Source of the DNA: Candidatus Phosphitivorax anaerolimi
GTDB taxonomy: Bacteria; Desulfobacterota; Desulfomonilia; UBA1062
Length of the DNA stretch: 64,000 bases
Direction: 5' to 3'
NCBI GenBank assembly: GCA_001896555.1
Contig: MPOS01000002.1
Location: 77,371 to 141,370, forward strand
Part shown: positions 2,704 through 30,013 of the stretch, piece after piece
Layout of the letters: every line of letters begins with the position of its first letter
How positions within the stretch are numbered: the first letter of the stretch is position 1
Made by a program: the position numbers and the translations under genes
The notes under the pieces: generated by a model
Seen by the model: the letters and a program-made list of their open reading frames with translations, nothing else
Database searches by the model: none
Told to the model about the DNA's origin: nothing

Positions 2704-3435
2704 CTATTTAACGATGAGAAGGTTTGCCTGCTTGAGTCTCTGGGCAAGGGAAGAGATGATCTTGTGGGCGACCTCGGGGTTTTCGCTGATGATCTTCTCC
2801 AGCCCGCCCTCGTGAACCGGAAGGACCTCGACCACGCTTCTGCCCAGGGAACGGATGGTTGCGCTCCTCGGCTCGTTGAGGATGAAACTCATCTCGCCGA
2901 AGTACTCGCCCGGTTTCGTGATCATGGCGATGCGCACGCCTTTTTTGAGAACCTCGAGCCCCTGCTCCGTCTGGTAGAGCTTGAATATCTCGGTACCGTC
3001 CGTGCCCTCTTCGATGATGGTCTCACCGTCGGCGAACTCACGGACATCGAGGTTGATGGTCTCGCTGTAGGGGATATTTGACTCTGCCACCGAGGTAGTC
3101 TGTTCGAGCTGCAGGTATGCCGAGCGCAGGATCATGCTCACCAGACCGGGCTTGCTGAATGCGATGTCTTCAATTGCGTCGGATTCATAGGCGGCCACGC
3201 GCGAGGGTTTCATAGCCTTTGCCGTGGTGCTGTAGGGAATCCCCCGATAGTAGTTCTCGAGGCCGAACACGTCGCGGTCGGAGAGGATGCGGATGGGTTT
3301 GTCCATCTGGTAGATCTGGACTTCTCCCTGGAGGATCGCATAGAAGAATTCGTTGGTGTCCCCTTCCCGTACGATCAGCTCTCCGGGACGATACTCCTTA
3401 ACCGACACCGCCTCGATGGTCTTGGGTTCCAGCAT
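2704..3435 (-). CDS. tandem cyclic-nucleotide-binding (cNMP/CAP-effector) domain protein without an HTH
   Basis: Two cNMP-binding domain signatures (FGE..., RSATIRS) in a 243-aa ORF with no DNA-binding domain. Confidence 0.7.
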   Translation of the reverse strand: MLEPKTIEAVSVKEYRPGELIVREGDTNEFFYAILQGEVQIYQMDKPIRILSDRDVFGLENYYRGIPYSTTAKAMKPSRVAAYESDAIEDIAFSKPGLVSMILRSAYLQLEQTTSVAESNIPYSETINLDVREFADGETIIEEGTDGTEIFKLYQTEQGLEVLKKGVRIAMITKPGEYFGEMSFILNEPRSATIRSLGRSVVEVLPVHEGGLEKIISENPEVAHKIISSLAQRLKQANLLIVK

Positions 3436-5884: not shown

Positions 5885-5898
5885 TCGTATCACCGGCC

Positions 5899-5930
5899 AT
5901 CGGGCATTCCGGTATCCGGGAATGCCCGAT
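5899..5930. terminator. near-perfect 14-bp stem hairpin between convergent genes (TPR gene and PilZ gene)
   Basis: ATCGGGCATTCCGG-TAT-CCGGGAATGCCCGAT starts about 15 nt after the stop of the 5147..5884 CDS. It has no clear U-tract. Confidence 0.4.
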
Positions 5931-6092
5931 ATCCGGTGCAATTCAAGGCTGATTTCTTTCTTGTGTGCGGCAAAGAGAGGACACATCCCTCACAAGAGGG
6001 GACTGCTCTGATTATTTGAAACCTTCGGTAGCGGGTACGTTCTCAAGGGTGGTTGCCGGCCGGGTGAGAAACGGTATGGGGGAAAGACCGGC

Positions 6093-17235: not shown

Positions 17236-18090
17236 TCAGCCCCGTTTCATGGCCATGAAGCTCCCCATGGGTACGTCCACCTCCTGTGAGACGACCGGGC
17301 ACTTGACCATGAAGAGGTGGAAAACCTCCCTGCCGGGTGCATCGAGGGTTTCGAAGTTGCCCTGCCCCTTGGATATGACCAGGTCCGCGGCCGCGAAGCA
17401 CTCCAGAAACTCCTCGCTGCACAAGGAAAGCGGTGTTCCCGGGGCCTCGGAGCCGCTCGGGATGACCCTGCATAGCCTGTCGAGCCCGGCCTGGGCCGCA
17501 TCGGTCAGGGTGGCGTCGTTGATGACGGGAGCCGACCTGACCGCGCAGGTGACCCTATCCGGCCCGATATGCTCGATGAATATCCGGTCGAGAACGATCT
17601 CGCCGGCGTTGTCGGCGACGTAGAGGACGCGCTCCGCCTTTCTAAGCCGCTCGATGAGCTCAGGGATGTCGTTGACGGCAAACGATGAGTCCAGGGCGTT
17701 CATGATCGTGTCTTCTACTGCGATTTCCTCGCAGCCGTGTGCGCCAAGCCCGAAATCGATGATGTTGCCGGCTACCGCCATGCGTAGAGCAGCCTCCAGC
17801 ATATCGGGCCTGGATGCAATGATCCGCCTCAGCCGCGGCGCCAGAGACAGGGCCTGCTCGTTGGAGTGCCTCTTCTTTTCTCCGTAGGGATCGCCCTTGC
17901 CGTCCATGTCTCTGTAGATCCGGTAGATCTCCCGGGTGAACAGGGGCGGCGGAGCGTCACAGTCGAAACGGGCTAGGCCTTCGAGGACCCGGCGCATGAA
18001 AGGCTCCCGCTTATGCGGGGCGAGATACTCCCGGGCCAGCCCGGCCGCCTGCTTTGTCAGGCAGGCTATGCATTCGACCTGGGTGCGCAT
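17236..18090 (-). CDS. DUF89 family protein (ARMT1-like damage-control phosphatase family)
   Basis: Length and N-terminal ECIACL-containing region are consistent with DUF89. Co-operonic with the upstream mrp (3-nt gap). Confidence 0.5.
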   Translation of the reverse strand: MRTQVECIACLTKQAAGLAREYLAPHKREPFMRRVLEGLARFDCDAPPPLFTREIYRIYRDMDGKGDPYGEKKRHSNEQALSLAPRLRRIIASRPDMLEAALRMAVAGNIIDFGLGAHGCEEIAVEDTIMNALDSSFAVNDIPELIERLRKAERVLYVADNAGEIVLDRIFIEHIGPDRVTCAVRSAPVINDATLTDAAQAGLDRLCRVIPSGSEAPGTPLSLCSEEFLECFAAADLVISKGQGNFETLDAPGREVFHLFMVKCPVVSQEVDVPMGSFMAMKRG

Positions 18091-18093
18091 CTT

Positions 18094-18957
18094 TCAACGT
18101 GAAACGATCTGCTCGAGTATTTTCGAGACGATCTTTGCAAACGCCTTGCCCGCTTCCGTATCACCCGATGACGCCACGAACGGCCTGCCCTCATCGGTGT
18201 CGCGAACGATACCCGGATCTATGGGGACCGCGCCCAGGAACGGCACGCCCAGGTCCTCGGACGCCTTCCTGCCGCCGCCCGTCTTGAAGAGGTCGATGCT
18301 CTTGCCGCAGTGCGGGCAGGCAAAGCCGCTCATGTTCTCGATGATGCCGAGAGGTTTGAGCTCGAGTGCCCTGGCGAACTCCACACTCTTGCGCGAGTCC
18401 AGAAGCGCCACGTCCTGCGGGGTGGTGACGATCACCGCATAGGGCGTCTCCACTCCCTCGACGCCCTTGGTGAGCTGCGCGATGGAAAGCGGCTCGTCGC
18501 CCGTGCCCGGAGGCAGATCAACCACGAGGAAATCGAGGTCGCCCCAGTTCACGTCCTTCAGAAACTGTCTCATGACCGTATGTTTCATGGGGCCGCGCCA
18601 GATCACCGGCGTGTCAGGGCTGTCCAGCAGGTACCCCACAGAGACCACCTTGATGCCGCCGATGGCCTCCACGGGCAGGATATTGCCTTTTTCGTCGCCC
18701 ATGAGTCTCATGTTTTCCACTCCCAGGACCTTGGGGATGTCGGGCCCGTGAATGTCGCCGTCGAGCACACCCACCCGGTAGCCCTCACGTGCCAGGCTGA
18801 GGGCCAGGTTTGCCGTCACCGTGGACTTGCCTACCCCGCCCTTGCCGCTCATGACCATGATGGTATGCCTGATCCGGGAAAGCTGCTTCTTCAGTTTTTT
18901 CTGCTGATTCTCCTGTATCTGTATTATCTTGCTGTTATCGATATCTGTCATCCTCAT
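18094..18957 (-). CDS. Mrp/NBP35/ApbC-family P-loop ATPase (Fe-S cluster carrier)
   Basis: Deviant Walker [11 protein letters not shown] and CPHCG cysteine motif. Confidence 0.85.
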
Positions 18958-19213
18958 CTCCTGATACTTAAAAAAGGTGGATGTTACCTATCACATAGTT
19001 CAGCCCACGACAATGGCTCAAGGGTTTTACTGTCTTCCTATTTTTCATGTGGTATTTGCAGCACTTCAAGCGCGTCTCTCCTTTGTTGGAAAAGACTTCA
19101 CATCCCTGCCTTCGAAGCCGTCGTGCGCCATCCCTATGAAATGCTCACTTAAAGATCATAGGTTATCAGCTTGTCTGGACATTGTCGGGAACAATCCGAT
19201 CAAGCCCCATATT

Positions 19214-19229
19214 ATGTTATATATAACAT
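19214..19229. promoter_or_regulatory. perfect 16-bp palindrome ATGTTATATATAACAT (Zur/Fur-family-like operator candidate)
   Basis: Exact inverted repeat inside a roughly 170-bp AT-rich island in the divergent mrp/fmdE intergenic region. Its half-sites match the gamma-proteobacterial Zur box half-sites ATGTTATA/TATAACAT, but here they are abutted without the central N. Confidence 0.5.
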
Positions 19230-19255
19230 AAATAATACTTGCACAAGCTGTTGTT

Positions 19256-19271
19256 ATGTTATAGTTAACAT
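19256..19271. promoter_or_regulatory. second, imperfect copy of the same palindrome (ATGTTATAGTTAACAT)
   Basis: 14/16 symmetric positions. Its centre lies 42 bp (about 4 helical turns) from the first site. It overlaps the putative -10 region downstream of a TTGCAC -35 (19239-19244), about 55 nt before the fmdE-like start. Confidence 0.45.
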
Positions 19272-19326
19272 ATAAAATGAATGTATGGGCTCTCGGGCTC
19301 ATGAATAGATTTGAAAGGATATAGAC

Positions 19327-19881
19327 ATGGCATCCATCGTTGATTACGACACTCTTCTGGACGAGTGCATCACGTTTCACGGGCATCTCTGCATGGGGCA
19401 GGTTCTGGGAGTGCGGGTAGCATCAAAAGGCCTGGAGCTTGTCTCGCCTGATTTACCGCGGGATCTGATCGTTGCTGTGGAGATAGACCGCTGCCTGGCG
19501 GACGCTGTGCTCACGGTCACGGGCACGAGGATAGGGCGGCGCAGCCTCAAGCTGTATAATTACGGCCGCATGGCGGCATCGTTTCTGAACTGCACAACCG
19601 GAAAGGCATACCGGGTAAGGGCTGCCTACCAGGGGCCCCAGCCTGGGGACGACGAGAAGGCCATGAGGTCGATCCTTGTGCTCCCGGATGAAGAGATCGT
19701 CGCCTGGGAAGAGATCGAGCTCGTATTCCCTGAAAGCGAAATGCCCGGGAGACCAAAGAGAACCGTCCTCTGCAGCATCTGCGGCGAGAAGATCTTCGAC
19801 GGCAAGGACAGGCCGGGGCCCGATGGCCCTGCTTGCGCCGCATGCCTCGACGGCAGGTACTATACGGTCAAGAAGAGCTGA
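19327..19881 (+). CDS. FmdE-family protein (formylmethanofuran dehydrogenase subunit E-like domain with C-terminal Cys4 zinc ribbon)
   Basis: FHGHLCMG motif typical of the FmdE domain; C-terminal CSICGEK...CAAC zinc-ribbon. Confidence 0.6.
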   Translation: MASIVDYDTLLDECITFHGHLCMGQVLGVRVASKGLELVSPDLPRDLIVAVEIDRCLADAVLTVTGTRIGRRSLKLYNYGRMAASFLNCTTGKAYRVRAAYQGPQPGDDEKAMRSILVLPDEEIVAWEEIELVFPESEMPGRPKRTVLCSICGEKIFDGKDRPGPDGPACAACLDGRYYTVKKS

Positions 19882-19910
19882 AAATCGTAAAATTAGGGAG
19901 AGAGGTATCA

Positions 19911-20705
19911 ATGGGGCTGCATTTTGCCAGAAGGAAAGGATCGCCGTGGAGCCTGTTCGATCGGCTCATCGAGGGAATCCCGCAGGAGATCGAGGTCGAA
20001 GATTGTCTTGTCGGGCTCCACTGGATCATGGTCCGGTCGAAGGGTGTGGGGATTGCCATGACGCCGCCCGAGGGCTCCAGGCATATCGAGGGCGCGGGAA
20101 CATTCAGGGGCAGGAAGGTCAGGGATCTGGCCGGGCTCATGAGGTCGTGGAGCATCATGGAGGCGGCAATCGGCGCAGCCGCTGCCAACTCGTATTACAA
20201 TGCGCCCGAGGTGCTGGCGGAAACCTGGGATATCGACATCCACAACCAGCCTGAGCTCAATGCGTTCGAGTATTATCAGAAACGCCTTGAGGGAAAGAAG
20301 GTTGCAGTGAAAGGCCATTTTCCGGGGCTCGAAGGCCTCGCAGAGGCATGCGAGCTCTCGATCCTGGAGAGAAGGCCTCAGAAAGGTGATTTCCCCGATC
20401 CTGCCTGCGAATATCTCCTCCCCCGTCAGGATGCGGTCTTCATGACCGGGACCGCCCTCATCAACAAAACCATGCCCCGCCTCCTCGAACTCGCTGCCGG
20501 AGGGATGAGCGTGGTCGTCGGCCCCACCACGCCGATCACGCCTCTGCTCTTCGCCTTTGGTGCGACAGCGCTTGCAGGCTCTGTGGTCATCGATGAGAAG
20601 AACGCATGGCGCCACGTTGCAGAGGGCGGGGACAGGTCGATCTTCTCCCACGGGACCCGGATGATAAAGGCTGAGCCTGCCATGGCAAGGAGGAGCGGGC
20701 GATGA
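19911..20705 (+). CDS. DUF4213/DUF364 'putative heavy-metal chelation' family protein (paralogue 1)
   Basis: About 265 aa. N-terminal small domain plus C-terminal Rossmann-like domain ending ...GGDRS. The architecture and the fmdE/ABC-transporter context match the DUF4213+DUF364 family. The call is by pattern, not by search. Start chosen at the ATG after SD AGGGAGAGAGG. Confidence 0.5.
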   Translation: MGLHFARRKGSPWSLFDRLIEGIPQEIEVEDCLVGLHWIMVRSKGVGIAMTPPEGSRHIEGAGTFRGRKVRDLAGLMRSWSIMEAAIGAAAANSYYNAPEVLAETWDIDIHNQPELNAFEYYQKRLEGKKVAVKGHFPGLEGLAEACELSILERRPQKGDFPDPACEYLLPRQDAVFMTGTALINKTMPRLLELAAGGMSVVVGPTTPITPLLFAFGATALAGSVVIDEKNAWRHVAEGGDRSIFSHGTRMIKAEPAMARRSGR

Positions 20706-21541
20706 CTGTCCCGGGGTATGACCGCATGATCGATGCAATCGCCTCTTCGGCAGACCCGAGGCCGCGCATCGAGGACATCCGCATCTACACCAACTGGGTC
20801 CTGGTCAAGACGGGCAAGTGGTCGCTGTCCACGGTCTTTCGGGGCATGCCGGGCTTCGACGAGCACCCGGGCATGGACACCTGGATGGGGGGCTGGCTGG
20901 GAAGGCCCGGTCTCGAATCCGCCATGGAGCTCCTTTCGAGCAGGGAAACGCTCAAGCGCGCCGTGGGAATGGCCTGCCTAAAATCCCTGCTCCCGGAGCC
21001 CGAGCACGTGCTCTTCGGGAATGCCATCGACATGTTCGAGGCCGCATCGCCGCATGTGCCCATATGCTTCATCGGGCATTTCAAGGATGGCGCGGACTGG
21101 CGCAGCAGAGGCCGCCCGGTCTCCATCGTGGAGCTCTTTCCAAGGCCGGGAGACATCCACTGGGATGAGGCGGATGAAGTCCTTGAAAAGGCGCGGATCG
21201 TGCTCATGACAGGGCTCACCGTGGTAAACGAGACCCTTTCGGCAGTGGTGGCCCGCACGCCCTCGGCCCTCATCCGCGTGATCATGGGCCCGACCGTGCC
21301 GCCGAGCCGGGCGCTCTTCGACTTCGGCATCGACATGCTCGGCGTGACCCTGGTCGACGATGTCGAGGCCATGGTGGGATATGCGCGGCTGGGAGGGGGC
21401 AGCATCGCCTATTCTCCTCCGGGCGCCCTCCGGAAGATCAATATGGTGAGAAGCGCCGACGATATACGCCGGAGGCTTGCCTCCCTGCTGACGGACCAGT
21501 GGGAGATCACAGGGGAAAAGGAAGAACTGGCATGTGGCTGA
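20702..21541 (+). CDS. DUF4213/DUF364 'putative heavy-metal chelation' family protein (paralogue 2)
   Basis: Same architecture as the preceding gene (C-terminal ...LGGGSIAY). ATGA start/stop overlap with paralogue 1 suggests translational coupling. Confidence 0.5.
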   Translation: MTVPGYDRMIDAIASSADPRPRIEDIRIYTNWVLVKTGKWSLSTVFRGMPGFDEHPGMDTWMGGWLGRPGLESAMELLSSRETLKRAVGMACLKSLLPEPEHVLFGNAIDMFEAASPHVPICFIGHFKDGADWRSRGRPVSIVELFPRPGDIHWDEADEVLEKARIVLMTGLTVVNETLSAVVARTPSALIRVIMGPTVPPSRALFDFGIDMLGVTLVDDVEAMVGYARLGGGSIAYSPPGALRKINMVRSADDIRRRLASLLTDQWEITGEKEELACG

Positions 21542-22356
21542 ACGCAGTCGCCCAATGGCGCTCGAAACGGGTTGCCTGCGCCCTGGTGACGATCATCGAA
21601 TCGGCCGGGTCAACTCCCCGCAAGGCCGGATCGAAAATGGCGGTGAGCGCGTGCGGGAAAACCGCAGGCTCTGTTGGCGGAGGCGCAGTCGAGCTGAAAT
21701 GCATAGAGCTTGCGAAAGAAGCGATTGCCCGGGGGGCCTGCATCACCGGGCGCTTCGTTTCAAACGACCAGGGCAACGACTGGACGCTTGCGGAGCAGGA
21801 TAGGTTGCTTGGCCTGTGCGGCGGGACGCTCACGGTGTTCGTCGAGCCTCTGACGCCCGAGCCTGAGCTGGTGATCTTCGGCGGAGGCCACATAGGCATG
21901 CACCTGGGAAGGCTGTGCGAGGTCCTGGAAATGCCGTACCGCGTGTACGACGAGCGGAAAGACTTCGTTGACGAAAAGCGCTTCTCCGGTGCCAAGGCCC
22001 TCGTCTGCGCCCCGTTCGCCGAGATTTCAGCGCATGTCGAGCTGTCGGACAGGAGCTACTGCGTGGTCATGACCTACGGCCACGAGCACGACGAAGAGGT
22101 CCTGGAACAGCTCCTGAAAAACAGCGCGATCCCCTACATCGGCATGATCGGCAGCCCGAACAAGGCGGGCGTCCTGGTCCGGAACATCAGGCAGCGAGGC
22201 GGCGTCATCGACGATAGGCTCTACTGCCCCATCGGGCTTTGCATCGGCCGGAACCTCCCGCAGGAGATCGCCCTGTCGGTCATGGCCGAGGTCGTGCTGC
22301 TCGCAAGGGGAGGACGGTACGACCATATGCGGATCGACTGGACCGGGAAAACTTAA
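21532..22356 (+). CDS. XdhC/CoxI-family protein (molybdenum-cofactor insertion chaperone-like)
   Basis: XdhC_CoxI N-domain (TIIESAGSTPRKAGSKMAV...GSVGGGAVE) plus XdhC Rossmann domain (VIFGGGHIG). SD AAAAGGAAGAA upstream; 10-nt overlap with the preceding gene. Confidence 0.7.
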   Translation: MWLNAVAQWRSKRVACALVTIIESAGSTPRKAGSKMAVSACGKTAGSVGGGAVELKCIELAKEAIARGACITGRFVSNDQGNDWTLAEQDRLLGLCGGTLTVFVEPLTPEPELVIFGGGHIGMHLGRLCEVLEMPYRVYDERKDFVDEKRFSGAKALVCAPFAEISAHVELSDRSYCVVMTYGHEHDEEVLEQLLKNSAIPYIGMIGSPNKAGVLVRNIRQRGGVIDDRLYCPIGLCIGRNLPQEIALSVMAEVVLLARGGRYDHMRIDWTGKT

Positions 22357-22454
22357 AATCAGCGGCATGAACCCCGGGGCAAGCCGTTGACTTTGTTTTA
22401 TTACAAGCGGCGGGGGATAAGCCCAGGAGACATTCAAATCATGCGAGAGGAAAT

Positions 22455-24485
22455 GTGAATATGAAGAGGGGATTGGGCATCAGGTGCATTTGCGGACTGG
22501 TTGTGCTTTTCCTGGCCTTCTCCGGTGCGGCGGCTGCCCGGGAGGCGGGCGGAGAAGCGAAAAAAGGCGATGCGAACGTCTTTAAGCTCGGAGAGGTGGA
22601 AGTCAGCGGAAAAAAAGAAGCGGTAAAGAACGTGACCGTGGACAAGGTCTCGTCGGAAGAGATGAGGCTCTTCAATGCAGACAACGTTGCCGAGGCCGCG
22701 GGCAGGCTCCCCGGGGTGAACATGTCCGCTTTCGGTGTAAGGAACGAGCGGATGGTATACGTGAGGGGCTTCGATCTCAAGCACGCGCCGATCTTCCTGG
22801 ACGGCATCCCCATCTATGTCCCCTATGACGGATACCCGGACCTCGGCAGGTTCACCACCTCCGATTTGTCGGAGATCGTGGTTTCCAAGGGGTTCACGTC
22901 CGTACTCTACGGGCCGAACACCATGGGAGGCGCGATCAACATGGTGTCGCGGAGACCGGAAAAGACCTTTGAAGGCGATGCGGGCGCCGGCTACGGCACC
23001 GGGGGGACCTACAGGGCACACCTCAATCTCGGGACGAATCAGGGAAGGTGGTATGTCCAGGCAGGCGGGTCATACATCGACAGCGATTATTTCCCGCTTT
23101 CCGACAGCTTCGACCCCACGCCTGCGGAAGACGGTAAGCGCAGAGAAAACTCCTATTATAAGGACGAGAGCGCAAACATAAAAATCGGCTTCACTCCCAA
23201 TGCCGAAGACGAGTATGCCTTGAGCTACATTCGCCAGCACGGCGTGAAGGGCTCGCCGCCGTATGCCGGGACAGACACTTCCCAGACTGCCCGTTACTGG
23301 CAGTGGCCCTACTGGAACAAGGAGAGCGTGTACTTCACCTCCAGGACGGAATTTCAAGCCCCCTTCTACCTGAAAACAGGCGCTTTCTATGACAGGTTCT
23401 GGAATTCCCTCCTGAGCTTCGACGATGCTACATACTCCACCATTACCCGGAAATACGCATTCAGGAGCGACTACAACGACCATACCTTCGGCGGTTCCGT
23501 CGAGGTCGGGACGGAAGCGGTCCGGTCCAACCTGATCAAGCTCTCTCTCAGGTACAAGAACGACATCCACAAGGAGTGGAACGAGGGAAAACCCATCCAG
23601 ACCTTCCAGGACTGCACCCTTTCCGCCGGTCTGGAAGATACGGTCACTATTTCCGAAGAGCTGTATGTCATTGCCGGAGCGAGCTATGACATGGCGGATA
23701 CCGTGGAGGCGGAAGACCTGGACGGCTCGAATCAGAGGGTCGATTTCGAGATGGAAAGAACAGCTGCGTTCAACCCCCAGCTCGGCATATTCTATACCCT
23801 CCCCGGCAAGGGAGTGATCCATGCCGCGATATCGAGAAAGACCCGCATACCTTCCATCAAGGACAAGTTCTCCTACAGGCTGGGCACCGCGATCCCCAAC
23901 CCCGGTCTCGATCCGGAGAAGTCGATCAACTATGAGATCGGATATCAGAACACCTTCTTCGGCAGGTTCTTCTTCAAGACCACGGTCTTCCACAACAACA
24001 TCACCGACTACATTCTCCAGGCAACGGTGCCCGATCCCTCGAACCCCGGGAGCACGACCCTGCAGAACCAGAACATCGGGAAGGTATCCCAGTACGGGGC
24101 CGAGGTGGAAGTATCGGGGGCACTGCTCGATGTCCTCGAAGGAGGCCTCACCTACGCCTATATCCACCAGAACAACAGAACGAATTCCAACAAGCTGACA
24201 AACGTCCCCGCGGCCAAGGCGGGAGGCTACCTCAAGTGCTCTCCCGCACACTTTGTGAGCGGGCTCGTGGACGTGCAGTACGTTTCAAAGATGTACAGCT
24301 CGTCGAACGGCGTGCGGGAGGCCGGGGACTTCACTGTCGTGAATGCGAAGCTCATGTGCGAGCCGGTGAAAGGAATCACGGCTGAAGCAGGGCTCGACAA
24401 TGTGTTCGACAGGAACTACGCTCTGGATGAGGGATTTCCCGAGCCGGGCAGGACCATGTTCGCAAATATCGGCTACAGGTTCTAG
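22455..24485 (+). CDS. TonB-dependent outer-membrane receptor
   Basis: Signal peptide, plug-domain motifs and a C-terminal beta-barrel ending in the terminal aromatic ...IGYRF. Confidence 0.85.
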   Translation: MNMKRGLGIRCICGLVVLFLAFSGAAAAREAGGEAKKGDANVFKLGEVEVSGKKEAVKNVTVDKVSSEEMRLFNADNVAEAAGRLPGVNMSAFGVRNERMVYVRGFDLKHAPIFLDGIPIYVPYDGYPDLGRFTTSDLSEIVVSKGFTSVLYGPNTMGGAINMVSRRPEKTFEGDAGAGYGTGGTYRAHLNLGTNQGRWYVQAGGSYIDSDYFPLSDSFDPTPAEDGKRRENSYYKDESANIKIGFTPNAEDEYALSYIRQHGVKGSPPYAGTDTSQTARYWQWPYWNKESVYFTSRTEFQAPFYLKTGAFYDRFWNSLLSFDDATYSTITRKYAFRSDYNDHTFGGSVEVGTEAVRSNLIKLSLRYKNDIHKEWNEGKPIQTFQDCTLSAGLEDTVTISEELYVIAGASYDMADTVEAEDLDGSNQRVDFEMERTAAFNPQLGIFYTLPGKGVIHAAISRKTRIPSIKDKFSYRLGTAIPNPGLDPEKSINYEIGYQNTFFGRFFFKTTVFHNNITDYILQATVPDPSNPGSTTLQNQNIGKVSQYGAEVEVSGALLDVLEGGLTYAYIHQNNRTNSNKLTNVPAAKAGGYLKCSPAHFVSGLVDVQYVSKMYSSSNGVREAGDFTVVNAKLMCEPVKGITAEAGLDNVFDRNYALDEGFPEPGRTMFANIGYRF

Positions 24486-24494
24486 GGGCTTGGA

Positions 24495-25565
24495 ATGCGG
24501 CGGAGCTCCCGGTATCGCGTCGCGGCATATACGCTGCCCATCCTGGTCATGACCTTCCTCTTTCCGGTCCTGGCAGGCATGTCGCCTGCCTCGGCCGGGG
24601 AGATCACTGACATGACCGGCAGGAAAGTCGTCGTGCCTGACACAATCAACCGGGTGTTCGCCGTATCCCCACCGGGCACCTATCTGCTCTATGCCCTCGA
24701 CCCATCCGTCATCATCGGCCTGAACTTCCCTCTGTGGGAGAGCGAGAAGCGGTATACGGCGAAAAGCTACCAGACCCTGCCGGTCATCGGCGGCATGGTG
24801 GGCCAGGGAAGGAACATCAATCAGGAGGTGCTCCTGGCGGCAAAGCCCGATGTAATCGTCATCTGGGCAGGCAGAGTCTCCGCTGTGACGAGAAACTACG
24901 AAGAGATGTTTGCGAGGATGAAGATCCCCTGGTTCAACGTTTGCCTCGATACCATAGATGATTACCCTGAAGCGATCCTGTTTGTGGGCAGGCTCCTGGG
25001 CAGGAAAGAGCGGGCCGCAGAGCTCCATGGCTATGCCGTGTGTTCGCTGAACCAGGTGAAAACTTCTGTTGCCGGGATACCCGAGGCTTCACGGCCAAAA
25101 GTGTATTATGCACAGGGCATGGACGGCCTCTGCACCGATCCTGCCGGCTCCATGCATACCGAGCTGATCGAGTTCTGCGGCGGCGTCAACGTCCACAGGA
25201 AGCAGTCGCGCGACAATTACGGCTACGGCATGGACAAGGTGACTTTGGAACAGGTCATGCTCTATGACCCGGACGCCATTCTCATCAAGGAAAAGGCCTT
25301 TTACGCCGAGGTGTTCTCAGACCCGCGGTGGAGAAGGATCAAAGCCGTGCGGGAGAAAAGATGCTTCCTGATCCCGCATGGCCCGTTCAACTGGTTCGAC
25401 CGGCCGCCCTCGTTCATGCGGCTCCTGGGCGCCAAGTGGCTCATGTCGATCCTCCATCCCGAACGCTTCCCCATCGACATGATGGGCGAGACGAAGCTCT
25501 TCTACCGGCTCTTCCTGGGAGTCGACCTGAGCGACAAAGAGGCAAAGGAGCTTCTCGGAGAGTGA
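24495..25565 (+). CDS. periplasmic substrate-binding protein, class III (FecB/BtuF/FhuD-like) of an ABC importer
   Basis: Signal peptide, about 350 aa. The two-lobe helical-backbone family pattern is typical of siderophore, heme or cobalamin binders. Confidence 0.75.
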   Translation: MRRSSRYRVAAYTLPILVMTFLFPVLAGMSPASAGEITDMTGRKVVVPDTINRVFAVSPPGTYLLYALDPSVIIGLNFPLWESEKRYTAKSYQTLPVIGGMVGQGRNINQEVLLAAKPDVIVIWAGRVSAVTRNYEEMFARMKIPWFNVCLDTIDDYPEAILFVGRLLGRKERAAELHGYAVCSLNQVKTSVAGIPEASRPKVYYAQGMDGLCTDPAGSMHTELIEFCGGVNVHRKQSRDNYGYGMDKVTLEQVMLYDPDAILIKEKAFYAEVFSDPRWRRIKAVREKRCFLIPHGPFNWFDRPPSFMRLLGAKWLMSILHPERFPIDMMGETKLFYRLFLGVDLSDKEAKELLGE

Positions 25566-26572
25566 AGCCTTCGATCCTCATAATCCTTTGCGCCGTGCTT
25601 GGTCTTATGTGCTGCCTCTCGCTCACCCTCGGCAAATATCCGGTCGGTATAGGCGACATGGCTGCATTCTTCCTGTACAAAACAGCCGGCGCGGGGCCGA
25701 TGGGGGTGGCGGATGCCGAGCTCATGGAGAACCTGCTCTTCGACATCAGGCTTCCCCGCATCCTCGCCGCCATGCTGATCGGAGCCGCTCTTTCCACATC
25801 GGGGGCGTCGTTCCAGGCGCTGTTCACCAACCCGCTCGTGTCTCCGAAGATGCTGGGCGTGCTTTCCGGCGCGTCCTTCGGCGCGGTATCGGCAATGCTC
25901 TTTACCAGGAGCTGGTTCGTGGTGCAGGCCTCTGCAGCGGCCTTCGGCTTCATCGCGGTAGGCGCTGCGATCGGGATAGCCCGGCTGTACCGGACGGATT
26001 CGATCATCATGCTGGTCCTGGGAGGCATCATCAGCGAGGCCCTGTTTACCTCCCTGATCTCCATCGTCAAATACGTTGCCGACCCCTACGACGATCTGCC
26101 CGCCATCACCTACTGGCTCATGGGAAACCTCTCGTTCGTGAATTTAAGGACTGTCACCATCGCCGGTGTCCCGATCCTTGCGGGCGTCTTCGCGCTCATG
26201 CTGTACGGAAAGCATTTGAATGTTCTTTCCCTGGGCGATGAAGAGGCGCACAGCCTGGGCGTCAACATACGGGTCATCCGCTATGGCATCATCTTTTTTG
26301 CCACGCTCGCAAGCACCCTGACCGTGGTCATCGGCGGCATGGTGGGCTGGGTGGGCCTCATCATACCTCACGTGGCCAGGATGCTCGTAGGCCCCAACAA
26401 TATCATCCTCCTTCCCGCCTCGGCGCTCCTGGGGGCAATCTATCTGCTGCTCGCCGACGGTCTTTCCCGGCTGCTGTTCAGCTTCGAGATACCAATCGGC
26501 ATCGTGACCTCGCTCTTCGGCATCCCCTTTTTCCTGTACATCCTGAGGAATGCGAAGAAGGGGTGGAGCTGA
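25562..26572 (+). CDS. FecCD-family ABC permease
   Basis: Polytopic membrane protein with FecCD/BtuC-type conserved glycine-rich segments. GTG start overlaps the stop of the binding-protein gene. Confidence 0.8.
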   Translation: MKPSILIILCAVLGLMCCLSLTLGKYPVGIGDMAAFFLYKTAGAGPMGVADAELMENLLFDIRLPRILAAMLIGAALSTSGASFQALFTNPLVSPKMLGVLSGASFGAVSAMLFTRSWFVVQASAAAFGFIAVGAAIGIARLYRTDSIIMLVLGGIISEALFTSLISIVKYVADPYDDLPAITYWLMGNLSFVNLRTVTIAGVPILAGVFALMLYGKHLNVLSLGDEEAHSLGVNIRVIRYGIIFFATLASTLTVVIGGMVGWVGLIIPHVARMLVGPNNIILLPASALLGAIYLLLADGLSRLLFSFEIPIGIVTSLFGIPFFLYILRNAKKGWS

Positions 26573-26575
26573 ATC

Positions 26576-27472
26576 ATGTTCATCCGAGTCGAGAACATCA
26601 GTTTTTCATACGGGAAAAAGGAAGTGCTCGACGATGTCTCCCTCTCTTTTCGCCGAGGCGAGGTGGTATCCCTGCTCGGACCGAACGGAAGCGGCAAGAC
26701 GACCCTCCTGAAGGTTCTCCTGGGAATCCTCAAGCCTTCAAGGGGCAGGGTCCTGTTCGAAGGTGCTCCGATCGTTGCGATCGGCGCGAAACGGTTCGCC
26801 CGGAGGGTAGCCTATGTGCCGCAGCTGCATCACGGCGCGTTTTCCTACTCTGTCCTGGACGTCGTGCTCATGGGGCGCATGCCGTACAAGAATTTTTTTT
26901 CGCGGTTCACCCGCCGCGACAACGAGATAGCCGAATCCATGCTCGAAAAGCTGGGGATCGTCCACCTCAAGCACAAGCCGTATACGGAGATCAGCGGCGG
27001 CGAGCGCCAGCTCACCCTCATCGCGCGCGCACTGGCACAGGGGGCCGACACCTTCATCATGGACGAGCCCATAACCGGCCTGGACTACGGGAATCAGATC
27101 AGGCTCCTGGAGCAGATCATGGTTCTTTCGGCAGAGGGGCATACCGTCATCAAGTCGACGCACTTTCCCGACCATGCCCTGTGGGTGTCCGACCGCGCGG
27201 TGCTTATGAAGGACGGGACCGTGGCGGCGGACGGCACTGCATCCGGGGAGATCACGGCGGGCAACCTGGGCAAACTCTACAACATCCCGGTGCGGGTCAT
27301 GGACGCCGGCAACGGATTCAGCGTCTGCATCCCCTCTTCGAAGAAATGGGAGTGCACATGCCGGGACAGGAAGAACGGGCCTGCACATCACAAACACGAC
27401 TGCTTCCGCAAAGAAGGGGGAGAGACGAGAGCAGGCAAGACCGCCTGCAGCGGTGAGGGAAAGAAGGAGTAA
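26576..27472 (+). CDS. ABC transporter ATP-binding protein (FepC/BtuD-type) with Cys/His-rich C-terminal extension
   Basis: Walker [10 protein letters not shown], signature SGGERQ, Walker B FIMDEP. It has an extra tail of about 45 aa containing 5 Cys and 3 His ([26 protein letters not shown]...C). Confidence 0.85.
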
Positions 27473-27477
27473 CCGTT

Positions 27478-27912
27478 GTGGAATGGCTGAAGATCGTGAT
27501 CGACTACGGGATTGTCGGGCTGCTCCTCGTCATGAGCGTTATGGCGCTGGCCGTCGCCCTGGAGAGGTACCTGTTCTATCGCAGCGTCAAGATCGATGAG
27601 TTCACGGACAGGAAGACCCTGGAGCTCGAGCTCACCGGGAAGCTCCACCTCATCGCCACCATAGGCAGCAATGCGCCGTACATCGGGCTGCTCGGCACCG
27701 TGCTCGGGATCATGCTCACGTTCTACACCATGGGCAGCGCCGGCTTCATGGATACGGGAAAGATCATGATCGGACTCGCTCTGGCGCTCAAGGTGACTGC
27801 CGTGGGACTTCTCGTGGCCATACCGTCGGTAGCCTGCTACAACCTTCTCCTGAGGAAGGCGAAGGTGCTCATCCTTCAGTGGGAGATCAAGCATGGAAGA
27901 CAAGGGCTTTGA
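27478..27912 (+). CDS. exbB: MotA/TolQ/ExbB-family proton-channel protein (short form)
   Basis: Two to three TM helices with the conserved TolQ/ExbB C-terminal helix pattern. GTG start; followed by exbD with overlap. Confidence 0.6.
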
Positions 27913-28273
27913 TTACATCAATGTCATTCCGCTGGTGGATGTGATGCTCGTGCTGCTCACCATCGTGCTCACGACCTCGACCTTTGTGGCCACGGGCTCG
28001 ATGCCGGTGGAACTCCCCAGGGCAAGAGAGGTCCACGGAGATGCCCTGAAGACCCTGACCGTGGAAATAGATGCCTCGGGACGGATCTTCATGAACGCAG
28101 CGCCGGTATCTCTCGAAGGAATGAGGGCAATGATGAGCCCGCTCGAAAGGTCGCTTCCCGTCCAGATACGGGCGGACAGGGCCATCGCCCTCCAGGTGTT
28201 CGTGGATGTGCTGGAAATCATTCAGACTCTTGGATTCACGAGGGTGAATCTCCAGCTCGAGCTCAAGAAATGA
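27893..28273 (+). CDS. exbD: ExbD/TolR-family biopolymer transport protein
   Basis: Single N-terminal TM ([14 protein letters not shown]) plus a periplasmic domain; length 126 aa. Confidence 0.75.
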
Positions 28274-28992
28274 GCCGGCAGGCGAGGGCAATCATCCTAT
28301 CCCTCTTCCTCCATGCCGTGGCCGTCGCATCGGTTTGGGCCATGAGCTGCTCTTTCAATTCTCTCTCCCAGCCTGTAACCATTGACCTGAGCCTCCTTGA
28401 TGCCGGAGGTCTCCTTGCCGGGAACGGATTGCCGGCAGACAGGCATGCCGGGGGTCCCTGCCTGAAGCCGCCGGAGAAGGCCTTCAAAAAGAAAAAGCCG
28501 GTCGAGAATGACGTGCATGAACCGATTATTCCTCTGGCAGAAACGCGGAATCCGGCGCCTGACGCGCTCTCGGATACAGGGGCAATAGAGCCCCTTGCAT
28601 CTTCGGACCCGGATATTCAGGCCACCGGCGGAACAGCCGCTGTTGACAGAGCGGAATCTCCTTCCGGGAGCGGTTCCTCCTCCATGCCTGGAGGGGCTCA
28701 AAGAGACGGCCATGCACTATACACGGCGGAGCAGTTCAATTATATCAAGGAGATGATCCGTAAGAACCTCGTTTATCCTCACATGGCCAGGAAGCTCGGC
28801 GTGGAGGGCAGCGTGGTCCTGGCTTTCATCGTCCTGCCCGACGGCGGGGTGAAGGATGTTCGGGTTACGATCAGCAGCGGCAGCAGCATTCTTGACAGCA
28901 ATGCCGTCACTACGGTCAGGAAGACGGCGCCTTTCCCCAGACCGCCCGTAGAGGCAGAGATCATCATTCCCGTTGTGTACAGACTGAAATAG
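28270..28992 (+). CDS. tonB: TonB-family energy transducer
   Basis: N-terminal TM anchor, Pro/Ala-rich linker and TonB C-terminal domain (GSVVLAFIVLPDGGVKDVRV). ATGA overlap with exbD. Confidence 0.7.
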   Translation: MSRQARAIILSLFLHAVAVASVWAMSCSFNSLSQPVTIDLSLLDAGGLLAGNGLPADRHAGGPCLKPPEKAFKKKKPVENDVHEPIIPLAETRNPAPDALSDTGAIEPLASSDPDIQATGGTAAVDRAESPSGSGSSSMPGGAQRDGHALYTAEQFNYIKEMIRKNLVYPHMARKLGVEGSVVLAFIVLPDGGVKDVRVTISSGSSILDSNAVTTVRKTAPFPRPPVEAEIIIPVVYRLK

Positions 28993-29006
28993 TTCCGGTA
29001 ACAAGA

Positions 29007-29894
29007 ATGTCTGAAAGAGATGATATGAAAAACAGAAGGGATGGGCAGCCGAATATGGACAGGATGCCGGATTGGCCCCTGCTCTGGAAGCAGCTAGCAG
29101 AGATCCAGGCCAGGGGCATGAATAAAAAACGGAGCAGCAAGCCCGAAGATGCGTGGGCGAACCGGGCGCGCACCTTCGGCGACAGCATCAAGAAACGATG
29201 GGAAAAAGAGGATTCCAGCAGGAGATTCCTGCTCGATCTGCTGAAGACCAATCCCGGATCCACCGTGCTCGACATCGGCGCCGGAACAGGTTCCTGGGCC
29301 TGCCTGCTTTCCCCGTACGCGGCCAAGGTCACCGCCCTCGAGCCCTCGCCCGCAATGATCGCACTCATGGAGGAGAACATCAGGGGGCTCGGGATCACGA
29401 ATGTGGAGATCGTCGAGGGCTCATGGCCCGGCGCCCAAGTCCAGGACCATGACTTCACACTGTGCTCGCATGCCATGTATGAATGCACCGATTTCCCCGC
29501 CTTTGTGCGGCGCATGAACGACGTCTCAAGACGCTGCTGCCTTCTCCTCATGCGTGCGGCTGTTCCCGACGGCGTCATGGCCGAAGTCGCCCGGGAGGTC
29601 TGGGGGCAGCCGCATGACAGCCCCAATTTCCTCATCGGCTACAACATCCTTTTCCAGATGGGCATTTTTGCAAACGTGCTCATCGAGGACACCGGCCTCT
29701 GGAAGCCCTGGACCAATACCGATCTGGATGAGGCCCTGGCCGACGTGAAGCGCAGGCTCGGATTGGCCGGAGATGATCGTCACGACGGCCCCATTGAGAA
29801 AATACTGATCGACAGGCTTACCTGGAAGGATGGAAGGCTCGTCTGGCCGCCCGGTGTCCGCTCGGCCTTGGTGTATTGGTACAAGCAGACATGA
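29007..29894 (+). CDS. class I SAM-dependent methyltransferase
   Basis: Motif I VLDIGAGTG. Last gene of the co-directional block. Confidence 0.65.
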   Translation: MSERDDMKNRRDGQPNMDRMPDWPLLWKQLAEIQARGMNKKRSSKPEDAWANRARTFGDSIKKRWEKEDSSRRFLLDLLKTNPGSTVLDIGAGTGSWACLLSPYAAKVTALEPSPAMIALMEENIRGLGITNVEIVEGSWPGAQVQDHDFTLCSHAMYECTDFPAFVRRMNDVSRRCCLLLMRAAVPDGVMAEVAREVWGQPHDSPNFLIGYNILFQMGIFANVLIEDTGLWKPWTNTDLDEALADVKRRLGLAGDDRHDGPIEKILIDRLTWKDGRLVWPPGVRSALVYWYKQT

Positions 29895-30013
29895 AGGCTC
29901 CCCGGCACCTGCACGGCTTCTTCATTGGCAGGCAGATAAAAAATGCGCGCACTGCCCCGGAAGACCGGATCATCGTCATCCGGATCCTGTGACCGGTTAC
30001 GGCAGGGGCGCTG

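What the first reader, a model, noticed from the sequence alone, without database searches (positions are those of the whole stretch)
19214..19271. Twin Zur/Fur-like palindromes 42 bp apart in an AT-rich divergent promoter
A perfect 16-bp palindrome ATGTTATATATAACAT (19214-19229) and a 14/16 copy ATGTTATAGTTAACAT (19256-19271) sit in a roughly 170-bp island of about 30% GC inside an otherwise roughly 60% GC window. Their centres are 42 bp apart, which puts them on the same helical face. The half-sites ATGTTATA/TATAACAT are those of the Zur box described for gamma-proteobacteria (GAAATGTTATAnTATAACATTTC). Here the halves are abutted without the central base, so the cognate regulator may be a different Fur-family member or an unrelated dimeric repressor. 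The second site overlaps the predicted -10 of the fmdE-like operon (TTGCAC -35 at 19239-19244), a classic repressor arrangement. No regulator gene is present in the window, so control is in trans.
Basis: partly seen in the sequence, partly recalled or inferred. Interest (0 to 1): 0.7.

Follow-up and report, generated by a model that had tools for sequence, protein, structure and literature searches.

The report
Conserved twin operator, molybdenum/tungsten uptake operon
Two near-identical 16-20 bp palindromes 42 bp apart bracket the promoter of a TonB-dependent uptake operon in an uncultured Desulfomonilia bacterium; they are conserved in three related species and look like a real repressor-binding pair, but the gene context points to molybdenum/tungsten rather than zinc (Zur) control, and the regulator is still unidentified.

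Summary
ATGTTATATATAACAT (19214-19229) extends to a perfect 20-bp palindrome at 19212-31. ATGTTATAGTTAACAT (19256-19271) lies 42 bp downstream. TTGCAC sits between them, and site 2 covers a TGnTATAGT extended -10.

The pair is not chance: 0/3000 local-composition simulations reproduced it. It is also conserved at 42/41/42 bp spacing upstream of orthologous fmdE operons (79-84% FmdE identity) in three other contigs, where the rest of the upstream DNA is unrelated.

The Zur reading is not supported. All eight strong sites are TGTTAT-N2-ATAACA, one base shorter than Zur boxes with the same half-sites. The operon is fmdE, 2x DUF364, xdhC, a TonB-dependent receptor, a MolA-like ABC importer, exbBD-tonB and a methyltransferase. 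In other lineages it carries Moco/Tuco riboswitches, canonical ModE boxes, or adjacent modE/modA or XRE-molybdate-binding regulator genes.

Best reading: a tandem operator for a trans-encoded dimeric repressor, probably answering to molybdate/tungstate status. Its family is unresolved. The sites fit the PadR ATGT-N8-ACAT motif and the E. coli GntR ATGTTA-N4-TAACAT motif equally well, and they are not a ModE box.

The feature is real and worth modest follow-up. The uncharacterised Mo/W-linked TonB-dependent cluster may be the more interesting object.

The parts
19212..19231 (.). Operator O1: perfect 20-bp palindrome TTATGTTATATATAACATAA (16-bp core 19214-19229), centred about 18 bp upstream of the centre of the -35-like hexamer
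   Evidence: Conserved in L055 (7881-7900), L059 (986-1005) and L063 (526-545, left half decayed). DNA homology to those contigs begins here.
19239..19244 (+). -35-like hexamer TTGCAC between the two operators
   Evidence: Conserved as TTGCGA, TTGCAC and TTGTGC at the same position in L055, L059 and L063. Its role as a -35 is inferred, not shown.
19254..19273 (.). Operator O2: TTATGTTATAGTTAACATAT (core 19256-19271). It overlaps the putative extended -10 TGtTATAGT (19257-19265).
   Evidence: It is the best-conserved block of the intergenic alignment, TTATGTTATA..TAACA in 4 of 4 sequences. Spacing to O1 is 42, 42, 41 and 42 bp in the four species.
18981..18996 (.). Possible weak third site ATGTTACCTATCACAT, 24 bp upstream of the start codon of the divergent MrpORP-like gene
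   Evidence: It keeps ATGT-N8-ACAT but scores under 12 bits with the PWM. It cannot be footprinted because the other species have different upstream neighbours. Tentative.
19327..19881 (+). fmdE-like gene (FmdE N-terminal domain plus a C-terminal CxxC...CxxC zinc ribbon), first gene of the regulated operon
19911..22356 (+). Two DUF4213/DUF364 genes (19911-20705, 20702-21541) and an XdhC-family gene (21532-22356; best NCBIfam match is the XdhC-family aldehyde-oxidoreductase maturation factor, below its cut-off)
22461..27472 (+). TonB-dependent receptor (22461-24485), class-III periplasmic binding protein (24495-25565; PDB relatives include H. influenzae HI_1472, which I recall is the molybdate/tungstate-binding MolA), FecCD-type permease (25562-26572) and ABC ATPase (26576-27472)
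27478..29894 (+). exbB (27478-27912), exbD (27893-28273), tonB (28270-28992) and a SAM-dependent methyltransferase (29025-29894); end of the operon
   Evidence: The near-identical strain contig L025 is colinear with the window only from 29979 onward.
17236..18957 (-). Divergent genes: an Mrp/NBP35 Fe-S carrier ATPase (18094-18957; best NCBIfam match MrpORP, below cut-off) and a DUF89/ARMT1-like damage-control phosphatase (17236-18090). They may be co-regulated through the weak third site.
   Evidence: The link to the operator is inferred only.

Best explanation
O1 and O2 are a tandem pair of operators for one trans-encoded, homodimeric helix-turn-helix repressor.

Mechanism. One dimer sits on O2 and covers the extended -10 (TGtTATAGT) of the fmdE-operon promoter. 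A second dimer sits on O1, just upstream of the -35-like TTGCAC. The centres are 42 bp (four helical turns) apart, so both dimers face the same side of the DNA. They can stabilise each other and sandwich the RNA-polymerase site, shutting off the 10.5-kb operon.

The operon. It encodes a TonB-dependent outer-membrane receptor, ExbBD-TonB, a MolA/MolBC-like type II ABC importer and cofactor-handling proteins (FmdE, DUF364 x2, XdhC). In other lineages this cluster is wired to molybdenum/tungsten sensing. The most likely signal is therefore molybdate/tungstate (or Mo/W-cofactor) sufficiency: repression when replete, derepression when starved.

What is shown and what is inferred.
- Shown: the sites exist, are non-random, are conserved in sequence, spacing and position in four species, and travel with the operon as one cassette. 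Orthologous clusters elsewhere carry Mo/W regulatory devices.
- Inferred: protein binding, repression and cooperativity, the promoter assignment, and the effector.
- Unresolved: the regulator family. The sites match the PadR-type ATGT-N8-ACAT motif and the LacI-type ATGTTA-N4-TAACAT motif exactly. They are not a Zur, ModE or TunR box.
For: 1. The sites are exact and statistically unexpected.
2. Phylogenetic footprint. In contigs encoding FmdE at 84%, 83% and 79% identity (L055, L059, L063) the same twin sites occur at 42, 41 and 42 bp spacing. A -35-like TTGC/TTGT hexamer lies between them. Sequence upstream of O1 is unrelated and the neighbouring genes differ.
3. Each site is palindromic on its own, in all four species. 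This is the signature of a dimeric protein.
4. Position. O2 overlaps TGnTATAGT and O1 abuts the -35.
5. Mo/W context.
- RF01055 riboswitches lie directly upstream of fmdE or inside the cluster in L003, L004, L007, L010, L013 and L015-L017. The L007 copies lack P3, which Regulski et al. (PMC2408646) link to a possible switch from Moco to Tuco specificity.
- ModE boxes with 3 or fewer mismatches sit next to the cluster in L001/L028, L002, L003, L004, L005, L008, L056-58 and L061 (consensus from PMC545781 and PMC2700814).
- modE-like genes are adjacent in L002, L056/57 and L061, the last together with a modA-like gene.
- An XRE plus molybdate-binding-domain regulator sits next to tandem 16-bp palindromes in L007.
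- The binding protein is related to PDB HI_1472, which I recall is MolA. The XdhC gene resembles an aldehyde-oxidoreductase maturation factor, and the Mrp gene resembles MrpORP.
6. No regulator gene lies beside the operon in the window (about 20 kb each side) or in L055 (8 kb each side), which fits a trans-acting regulator.
Against: - No binding protein has been identified and no expression data are available.
- The regulon could not be surveyed, because only about 64 kb of this genome plus a few contigs were accessible. No second target promoter is known apart from the weak site at 18981.
- The sites do not match any described Mo/W regulator motif. ModE is CGnTATATA-N6-TATATAnCG and the best window match has 4 of 18 mismatches. 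The 30-bp TunR motif is known to me only from memory.
- The -10 hexamer is imperfectly conserved (TATAGT, TATAAA, TATAAG, TATAGG) and the -35/-10 spacer would be only 15 bp, so the promoter assignment is soft.
- The Mo/W inference rests on orthologues at 34-70% FmdE identity, not on the twin-site clade itself.
- The transporter components are of a type that usually carries iron-siderophore, haem or B12 substrates.
Confidence: 0.55

Rival explanations
1. Zur or another Fur-family metalloregulator operator. A zinc-loaded (or other metal-loaded) Fur-family dimer binds each box and represses a zinc or metallophore uptake operon.
For: - The half-sites ATGTTATA/TATAACAT are identical to the gamma-proteobacterial Zur box. 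Even-length Zur boxes exist, such as GATATGTTATAACATATC in the Rhodobacter group (PMC2706843).
- Zur sites typically overlap the -10 and act in trans.
- Zur regulons often include TonB-dependent receptors; the NCBIfam library holds a model for the zinc-piracy TonB-dependent receptor ZnuD.
Against: - All eight strong sites have N2 between TGTTAT and ATAACA. None has the N3 or N0 of described Zur boxes.
- The E. coli structural core RNNNYxxxRNNNY is not satisfied.
- The delta-proteobacterial Zur boxes described are ATGCAACNNNGTTGCAT or Bacillus-like.
- Weak sites keep the outer bases and lose the central ones, opposite to Zur.
- Orthologous operons are under Moco/Tuco riboswitch and ModE control, and no zinc gene is in the cluster.
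Confidence: 0.1
2. Operator of a PadR-family repressor, or of another small-molecule-sensing repressor such as a LacI/GntR-type, whose signal is not Mo/W. The signal could be, for example, the imported chelate or an organic ligand.
For: - Ten of ten sites fit ATGT-N8-ACAT within one base: window O1, O2 and the weak third site, L055 x2, L059 x2, L063 x2 and L060. This is the canonical PadR/LmrR/LadR motif (PMC4517056 and PMC10295242).
- The outer tetranucleotides are the best-kept positions in the weak sites.
- The E. coli GntR consensus ATGTTACCCGTAACAT has identical half-sites and spacing (PMC10450161).
Against: - No PadR or LacI gene lies next to the operon in the window or in L055, whereas the L. 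plantarum padR is contiguous with its target and LmrR binds its own promoter.
- The centre of the palindrome is never CG. As I recall, most LacI-family operators have a central CG.
- ATGT-N8-ACAT has only eight specified bases, so the match carries little information.
- I know of no PadR or LacI regulator of metal uptake (from memory).
Confidence: 0.2
3. The two arms pair with each other in a transcript, forming a 17-19 bp AU-rich hairpin with a 22-nt loop. This would act as an RNA-level element such as an attenuator, a processing site or a thermosensor.
For: Predicted hairpin of -19.4 kcal/mol, z = -3.9 against shuffles. RNAalifold draws the same stem in all four species, and two pairs are changed on both sides in L063.
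Against: - The covariation term is about 0 (+0.25), and the pairing follows trivially from two copies of one palindrome.
- A hairpin does not require each arm to be self-complementary, yet each arm is, in four species.
- A conserved -35-like hexamer sits in the 'loop'.
- DNA homology between species starts at O1, so no conserved promoter exists upstream to transcribe it.
- No Rfam family matches.
Confidence: 0.03
4. No dedicated regulator is involved. The palindromes are promoter architecture only, such as back-to-back extended -10 elements (TGTTATA reads the same on both strands) or AT-rich UP or nucleoid-protein sites.
For: Each half-site contains TGnTATA. The region is an AT-rich island, which nucleoid proteins favour.
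Against: - Full dyad symmetry over 18-20 bp and a fixed 41-42 bp spacing are conserved, while the -10-like hexamer itself varies.
- Two of the three other species have no called gene on the opposite strand directly upstream of O1 for a divergent promoter to serve: none is seen in the 480 bp upstream in L063, and in L055 there is only a doubtful 84-aa ORF; L059 has a divergent 245-aa ORF.
Confidence: 0.05

Closest known systems
Gamma/beta-proteobacterial Zur box (GAAATGTTATANTATAACATTTC; Fur family)
   Same: Identical 8-bp half-sites ATGTTATA/TATAACAT. AT-rich palindrome of about 20 bp. Overlaps the -10. Trans-acting metalloregulator of uptake genes, often including TonB-dependent receptors.
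   Different: One base pair shorter between the half-sites in every copy. Does not fit RNNNYxxxRNNNY. The gene context is Mo/W rather than zinc. The conservation pattern favours the outer bases over the central ones.
PadR-family operators (ATGT-N8-ACAT; PadR, LmrR, LadR)
   Same: Exact geometry and exact conserved tetranucleotides. More than one site occurs at a promoter here, as I recall for lmrCD and padC. The position is that of a repressor.
   Different: No adjacent or autoregulated padR gene. The known PadR targets cited in the papers read here are phenolic-acid genes and multidrug-transporter (lmrCD, mdrL) genes, not metal uptake. The inner TAT/ATA bases are also conserved here.
ModE box (ATCGnTATATA-N6-TATATAnCGAT) and the ModE molybdate regulon
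   Same: The same operon type is preceded by genuine ModE boxes in other lineages. The half-site TGTTATATA differs from CGTTATATA by one base. The expected logic is the same: repression of uptake when molybdate or tungstate is replete.
   Different: The half-sites are about 10 bp (one helical turn) closer together. The CG ends are replaced by TG/CA. No modE gene is in the window. The best ModE-box match in the window has 4 of 18 mismatches.
Tandem TGACAT-N4-ATGTCA palindromes next to an XRE-HTH/molybdate-binding-domain (PF12727) regulator upstream of fmdE in a Syntrophales MAG (L007)
   Same: 16-bp 6-4-6 palindromes in tandem immediately upstream of an fmdE orthologue. The hexamer ATGTCA resembles ATGTTA. 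A Mo-annotated one-component regulator is present.
   Different: The hexamers are everted rather than inverted. Spacing is 20 bp rather than 42 bp. The regulator is encoded next door there but not here. That system is itself uncharacterised.
H. influenzae MolABC (HI1470-72) and TonB-dependent metallophore uptake
   Same: A type II (FecCD/BtuC-like) ABC importer with a class-III binding protein related to HI_1472 (which I recall is MolA). TonB-ExbBD energises an outer-membrane step.
   Different: No TonB-dependent receptor or FmdE/DUF364/XdhC genes are part of MolABC as far as I know. The substrate here is unknown.

Membership tests
Zur box (Fur family) | Half-sites TGTTAT/ATAACA (gamma/beta type) | tested here: met
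   ATGTTATA/TATAACAT are identical to the published consensus.
Zur box (Fur family) | Spacing: 9-1-9 / 7-3-7 palindrome (or the abutted 18-mer of alpha-proteobacteria); RNNNYxxxRNNNY core for one dimer | tested here: not met
   All 8 strong sites in 4 species are 7-2-7. The purine/pyrimidine pentads G5-T9 and A12-C16 are separated by 2 bases, not 3 (sequence compared).
Zur box (Fur family) | Located upstream of zinc-homeostasis genes (znuABC, COG0523, C- ribosomal paralogues) | tested here: not met
   The operon content and the Mo/W riboswitches, ModE boxes and modE/modA genes at orthologous clusters. The rest of the genome could not be scanned.
Zur box (Fur family) | Zinc-dependent binding by a Fur-family protein | not testable with these tools
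   Needs EMSA or footprinting.
PadR-family operator | Inverted repeat ATGT-N8-ACAT | tested here: met
   Searches compared with PMC4517056 and PMC10295242. Exceptions: ACAC in L059 and L063 site 2, GTGT in L063 site 1.
PadR-family operator | Cognate padR gene adjacent and/or autoregulated through the same box | tested here: not met
   No PF03551 gene in the 64-kb window or within 8 kb either side in L055.
ModE box | CGnTATATA-N6-TATATAnCG | tested here: not met
   The best window match has 4 of 18 mismatches at 19205 and merely overlaps O1. The same scan finds matches with 3 or fewer mismatches at orthologous clusters in other lineages.
ModE box | Precedes molybdate/tungstate transport or Moco genes | tested here: inconclusive
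   The context is Mo/W-linked by orthology, but the substrate of this transporter is unproven.
LacI-family GntR-type operator | ATGTTA-N4-TAACAT 16-mer | tested here: met
   Sequence compared with PMC10450161.
LacI-family GntR-type operator | Central CG step and sugar-catabolic target genes with a lacI-type gene nearby | tested here: not met
   The centres are AT, AG, AA, AA, AG, AA, CT and AG. There is no LacI-family gene or sugar gene at the locus. The central-CG rule is from memory.
Moco/Tuco riboswitch (RF01055) | Covariance-model match in the 5' leader | tested here: not met
   No hit in the window at gathering threshold, or at E up to 10 in 18800-19500.

The most novel reading that the evidence does not exclude
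O1 and O2 are the recognition site of an undescribed molybdate/tungstate-responsive repressor. It could be a ModE-type winged helix on a different dimer scaffold, which would place the near-identical half-sites one helical turn closer together. It could instead be an XRE/PBP-type sensor. A long shot is the zinc-ribbon FmdE protein acting as autoregulator. In one Desulfomonilia-related clade this regulator would have replaced the ModE-box and riboswitch control found elsewhere. It travels with a mobile TonB-dependent tungsten/molybdenum acquisition cassette (fmdE-DUF364-xdhC-TBDR-molABC-like-exbBD-tonB) that has not been characterised in any organism.
Probability: 0.25. Interest if true: 0.65.

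Novelty: new member of a known kind. Interest (0 to 1): 0.42.

Why it matters
Molybdenum and tungsten supply limits formate dehydrogenases, aldehyde oxidoreductases and related enzymes in syntrophic and sulfate-reducing anaerobes, including those in anaerobic digesters where this organism lives.

The operator gives a concrete, testable handle: a 20-bp probe with a fixed 42-bp tandem geometry. It could be used to fish out the unknown regulator and to define a Mo/W regulon in uncultured Desulfomonilia.

The comparative work also shows that one conserved but uncharacterised gene cluster sits behind three or four different regulatory devices in different phyla: the Moco/Tuco riboswitch, the ModE box, XRE-PBP palindromes and this twin operator. 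The cluster comprises a TonB-dependent receptor, a MolA-like ABC importer, FmdE, DUF364 and XdhC. That pattern is strong circumstantial evidence for a TonB-dependent route of Mo/W acquisition, and for roles of FmdE and DUF364 in it.

If the regulator proves to be an ordinary PadR or Fur paralogue, the finding becomes routine annotation.

Tried and rejected
1. Genome-wide regulon search. This was not possible. Closer relatives came from the protein search plus exact look-ups, which are now exhausted.
2. PWM and mismatch scans of the window and all 64 loci found no further convincing sites. The L051 hit lies inside a coding ORF and the L025 hit is weak; I treat both as chance.
3. Rfam found nothing in the window.
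4. The RNA-hairpin reading was rejected for lack of covariation and because each arm is palindromic on its own.
5. The TunR paper could not be retrieved, so the TunR motif is known to me only from memory.
6. Candidate local regulators.
- The 84-aa ORF divergent from fmdE in L055 and the 245-aa ORF in L059 have no DNA-binding domain.
- The window's ArsR/SmtB gene at 39084 has no copy of the motif upstream.
- The cNMP-binding protein at 2704-3435 shows no HTH.
7. FmdE as a DNA-binding autoregulator. Only a speculation in PMC2954224 supports this. I kept it as part of the novel case and not as an explanation.
8. A search for an XRE-PBP regulator of the L007 type in this organism returned no hit named Desulfomonilia among the 120 listed, which is uninformative.
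9. A plasmid search with FmdE gave only distant homologues at 32% identity or less.
10. The literature search for DUF364 together with Mo/W found nothing.
Full report
**1. Observation**

The sequences and coordinates are exactly as reported.
- ATGTTATATATAACAT occupies 19214-19229. It is the core of a perfect 20-bp palindrome, TTATGTTATATATAACATAA, 19212-19231.
- ATGTTATAGTTAACAT occupies 19256-19271, 42 bp downstream, and matches the first site at 14 of 16 positions.
- TTGCAC is at 19239-19244.
- GC falls to 0.31-0.35 across about 19150-19350, against 0.58 for the whole window.

A mismatch search found a third, weaker copy, ATGTTACCTATCACAT, at 18981-18996. That makes 3 matches where 0.01 are expected from whole-window shuffles. 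The region is AT-rich, so I also simulated the 177-bp intergenic stretch from its own first-order composition. A perfect 16-bp palindrome arose in 24 of 3000 simulations, a 14/16 repeat in 31 of 3000, and both together in none.

**2. Surroundings**

The + strand operon runs from 19327 to 29894. It encodes:
- FmdE, with a C-terminal CxxC...CxxC zinc ribbon;
- two DUF4213/DUF364 proteins;
- an XdhC-family protein;
- a TonB-dependent receptor;
- a class-III periplasmic binding protein, a FecCD-type permease and an ABC ATPase;
- ExbB, ExbD and TonB;
- a SAM-dependent methyltransferase.

Divergently transcribed are an Mrp/NBP35 ATPase and a DUF89 phosphatase. The organism is an uncultured Desulfomonilia bacterium (Desulfobacterota) recovered repeatedly from anaerobic digesters. 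The window does contain one regulator gene, an ArsR/SmtB-family gene at 39084-39437. It has no copy of the motif.

**3. Conservation**

FmdE homologues at 84%, 83% and 79% identity were found by protein search, and their contigs were retrieved.

| Locus | FmdE identity | Site 1 | Site 2 | Spacing |
|---|---|---|---|---|
| window | - | ATGTTATATATAACAT | ATGTTATAGTTAACAT | 42 |
| L055 | 84% | ATGTTATAAATAACAT | ATGTTATAAATAACAT | 42 |
| L059 | 83% | ATGTTATAGATAACAT | ATGTTATAAGTAACAC | 41 |
| L063 | 79% | GTGTTCCCTATAACAT | ATGTTATAGGTAACAC | 42 |

(Sequences.)

In the four-way alignment only four blocks are conserved: the two sites, a TTGCAC/TTGCGA/TTGTGC hexamer between them, and the ribosome-binding region. 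blastn shows that DNA homology between these contigs and the window begins at the left edge of site 1 (19211-19222). The genes upstream differ in every case. A 99.7%-identical strain contig (L025) is colinear with the window only from 29979 onward, 85 bp past the end of the operon.

The operators therefore belong to the operon as one cassette, and they have been kept under selection. A 71% relative (L060) retains one degenerate copy, ATGTCCATAAGAACAT. A 73% relative (L064) has fmdE in a different operon position with no promoter. The refined consensus is TTATGTTAT-NN-ATAACATAA.

**4. What the operon is wired to elsewhere**

- Riboswitches. Homologous fmdE loci in Chloroflexi, Geobacteraceae and Syntrophales carry the molybdenum/tungsten-cofactor riboswitch RF01055 directly upstream of fmdE or inside the cluster. 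Eight loci score 36-79 bits. The two Syntrophales copies lack the P3 stem. Regulski et al. connect that feature with a possible switch from Moco to Tuco specificity (PMC2408646).
- ModE boxes. A scan with the ModE consensus CGnTATATA-N6-TATATAnCG (PMC545781 and PMC2700814) finds sites with 3 or fewer mismatches beside the cluster in at least eight lineages. One example is CGTTATATAGTTATTTACATATCG in front of the receptor gene in L061. L056-58 carry three sites each.
- Regulator and transporter genes. modE-like genes (HTH plus TOBE) adjoin the cluster in L002, L056/57 and L061, the last together with a modA-like gene.
- A second regulator type. In L007 an XRE-HTH plus PF12727 regulator sits two genes upstream of fmdE. 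Its family is annotated by sources as 'molybdate-binding protein/XRE regulator'. The perfect palindrome TGACATGATAATGTCA follows its stop codon, and two more copies lie 20 bp apart just upstream of fmdE.
- Protein similarities. The window's binding protein matches PDB HI_1472 at E = 2.7e-16; I recall that this protein is the molybdate/tungstate-binding MolA. The XdhC protein is closest to the 'aldehyde oxidoreductase maturation factor' model, and the Mrp protein is closest to MrpORP. Both score below the curated cut-offs.

None of this involves zinc.

**5. What the sites are**

Each site is self-complementary in four species, which points to a dimeric DNA-binding protein.

Site 2 contains TG-T-TATAGT, an extended -10 motif, 15 bp after the conserved TTGCAC. 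Site 1 ends 7 bp before that hexamer. The centres are four helical turns apart. The most economical mechanism is two repressor dimers on one face of the DNA, one over the -10 and one upstream of the -35, probably stabilising each other. Binding, repression and cooperativity are inferred, not shown. The promoter call is soft because the hexamer varies and the spacer is short.

Given section 4, the likeliest signal is Mo/W sufficiency.

**6. Which regulator**

The motif alone cannot decide the family.

- Zur. The sites share their half-sites with the gamma-proteobacterial Zur box, but they are one base shorter in all eight strong copies. They do not fit the RNNNYxxxRNNNY core. The weak copies keep the outer ATGT/ACAT and lose the centre, whereas central bases are critical for Zur.
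- PadR. The sites fit the canonical ATGT-N8-ACAT exactly.
- LacI-type GntR. The sites fit the E. coli consensus ATGTTACCCGTAACAT in half-site and spacing.
- No PadR or LacI gene is nearby, and neither family is known to me for metal uptake.
- ModE. The sites share 8 of 9 bases with a ModE half-site (TGTTATATA against CGTTATATA), but the halves are about 10 bp closer, so this is not a ModE box.
- L007 palindromes. They have the same 6-4-6 geometry and a similar hexamer, but in everted orientation.

I therefore commit to 'trans-encoded dimeric repressor, probably Mo/W-responsive, family unresolved'. I rank Zur low.

**7. Rivals considered**

An RNA hairpin between the two arms is predicted at -19.4 kcal/mol with z = -3.9. 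It shows no covariation, it does not explain why each arm is itself a palindrome, and it would need a promoter upstream of the point where conservation begins. A promoter-only reading does not explain the conserved dyad symmetry and spacing.

**8. Novelty and interest**

A tandem operator flanking a promoter is a familiar device. What is new is this particular motif, its unknown regulator, and its association with a widespread but uncharacterised Mo/W-linked TonB-dependent uptake cluster. I found no open-access literature connecting DUF364/FmdE clusters with Mo/W.

I rate interest as moderate (0.42). The decisive test is a PWM scan of the complete MAGs, which these tools could not perform.

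Noticed in passing
window 19211-29979: The fmdE operon with its twin operators behaves as a cassette. DNA homology to three other species starts exactly at O1. A 99.7%-identical strain contig (L025) is colinear with the window only from 29979 onward and has a Big_5/NHL gene where the operon would be.
   Followed up: partly
L007 4963-4978, 5917-5952; regulator gene L007 3832-4950: In a Syntrophales MAG there are three TGACAT-N4-ATGTCA palindromes, two of them 20 bp apart upstream of fmdE. They lie next to an XRE-HTH/PF12727 'molybdate-binding' regulator. This is probably the operator set of an uncharacterised Mo/W one-component regulator family that is common in Geobacteraceae and Desulfuromonadales.
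   Followed up: partly
L003 1283-1306 with riboswitch 1322-1439; L004 1122-1145 with riboswitch 1162-1280: A ModE-box-like site lies 16 bp upstream of a Moco riboswitch in two Geobacteraceae loci, which suggests stacked protein and RNA control of the same transcript. Moco-II RNA hits (RF01713) follow at L003 1526-1572 and L004 1407-1456.
   Followed up: no
L005 5853-5901: A perfect 18-nt inverted repeat, CTATTTAACTCTTGACAT-N13-ATGTCAAGAGTTAAATAG, lies upstream of fmdE in a Geobacter MAG and overlaps a ModE-box-like match with 3 mismatches. A second 19-nt inverted repeat follows at 5895-5935. Their function is unknown.
   Followed up: no
fmdE-type clusters in L002, L003, L004, L007, L010, L013, L015-17, L056-58, L061 and window 19327-29894: One gene set (TonB-dependent receptor, Peripla_BP_2/FecCD/ABC importer, FmdE, DUF364, XdhC, often a methyltransferase) recurs across phyla behind Moco/Tuco riboswitches or ModE boxes. 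It looks like an undescribed TonB-dependent Mo/W acquisition and cofactor-handling system.
   Followed up: partly
locus of P0017 (no DNA held): A 67% FmdE relative sits in a larger neighbourhood: an ArsR-type HTH gene, a NifX-like Nitro_FeMo-Co gene, DUF134, an HMGL-like (homocitrate-synthase-like) gene, TrmO_N, the receptor/DUF364/FmdE/ABC genes, XdhC, a chromate-transporter-family gene and ABC_tran/BPD_transp_1 ABC-transporter genes (possibly modBC-type, my inference).
   Followed up: no
window 18958-19211: About 255 bp of non-coding DNA (GC about 0.45) lie between the Mrp-like start and O1. There is no credible ORF, no Rfam hit and no homology to the other species. Only the weak third site at 18981-18996 stands out.
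   Followed up: partly
window 39084-39437 (+): An ArsR/SmtB-family regulator gene lies next to a GGDEF gene, about 20 kb from the operators. This contradicts the statement that the window holds no regulator, but no copy of the motif lies near it.
   Followed up: partly
window 19301-19319: A conserved block in the 5' leader (consensus AATGGAATTGAAAGG) lies just before the start codon in all four species. It extends further upstream than a Shine-Dalgarno sequence needs.
   Followed up: no
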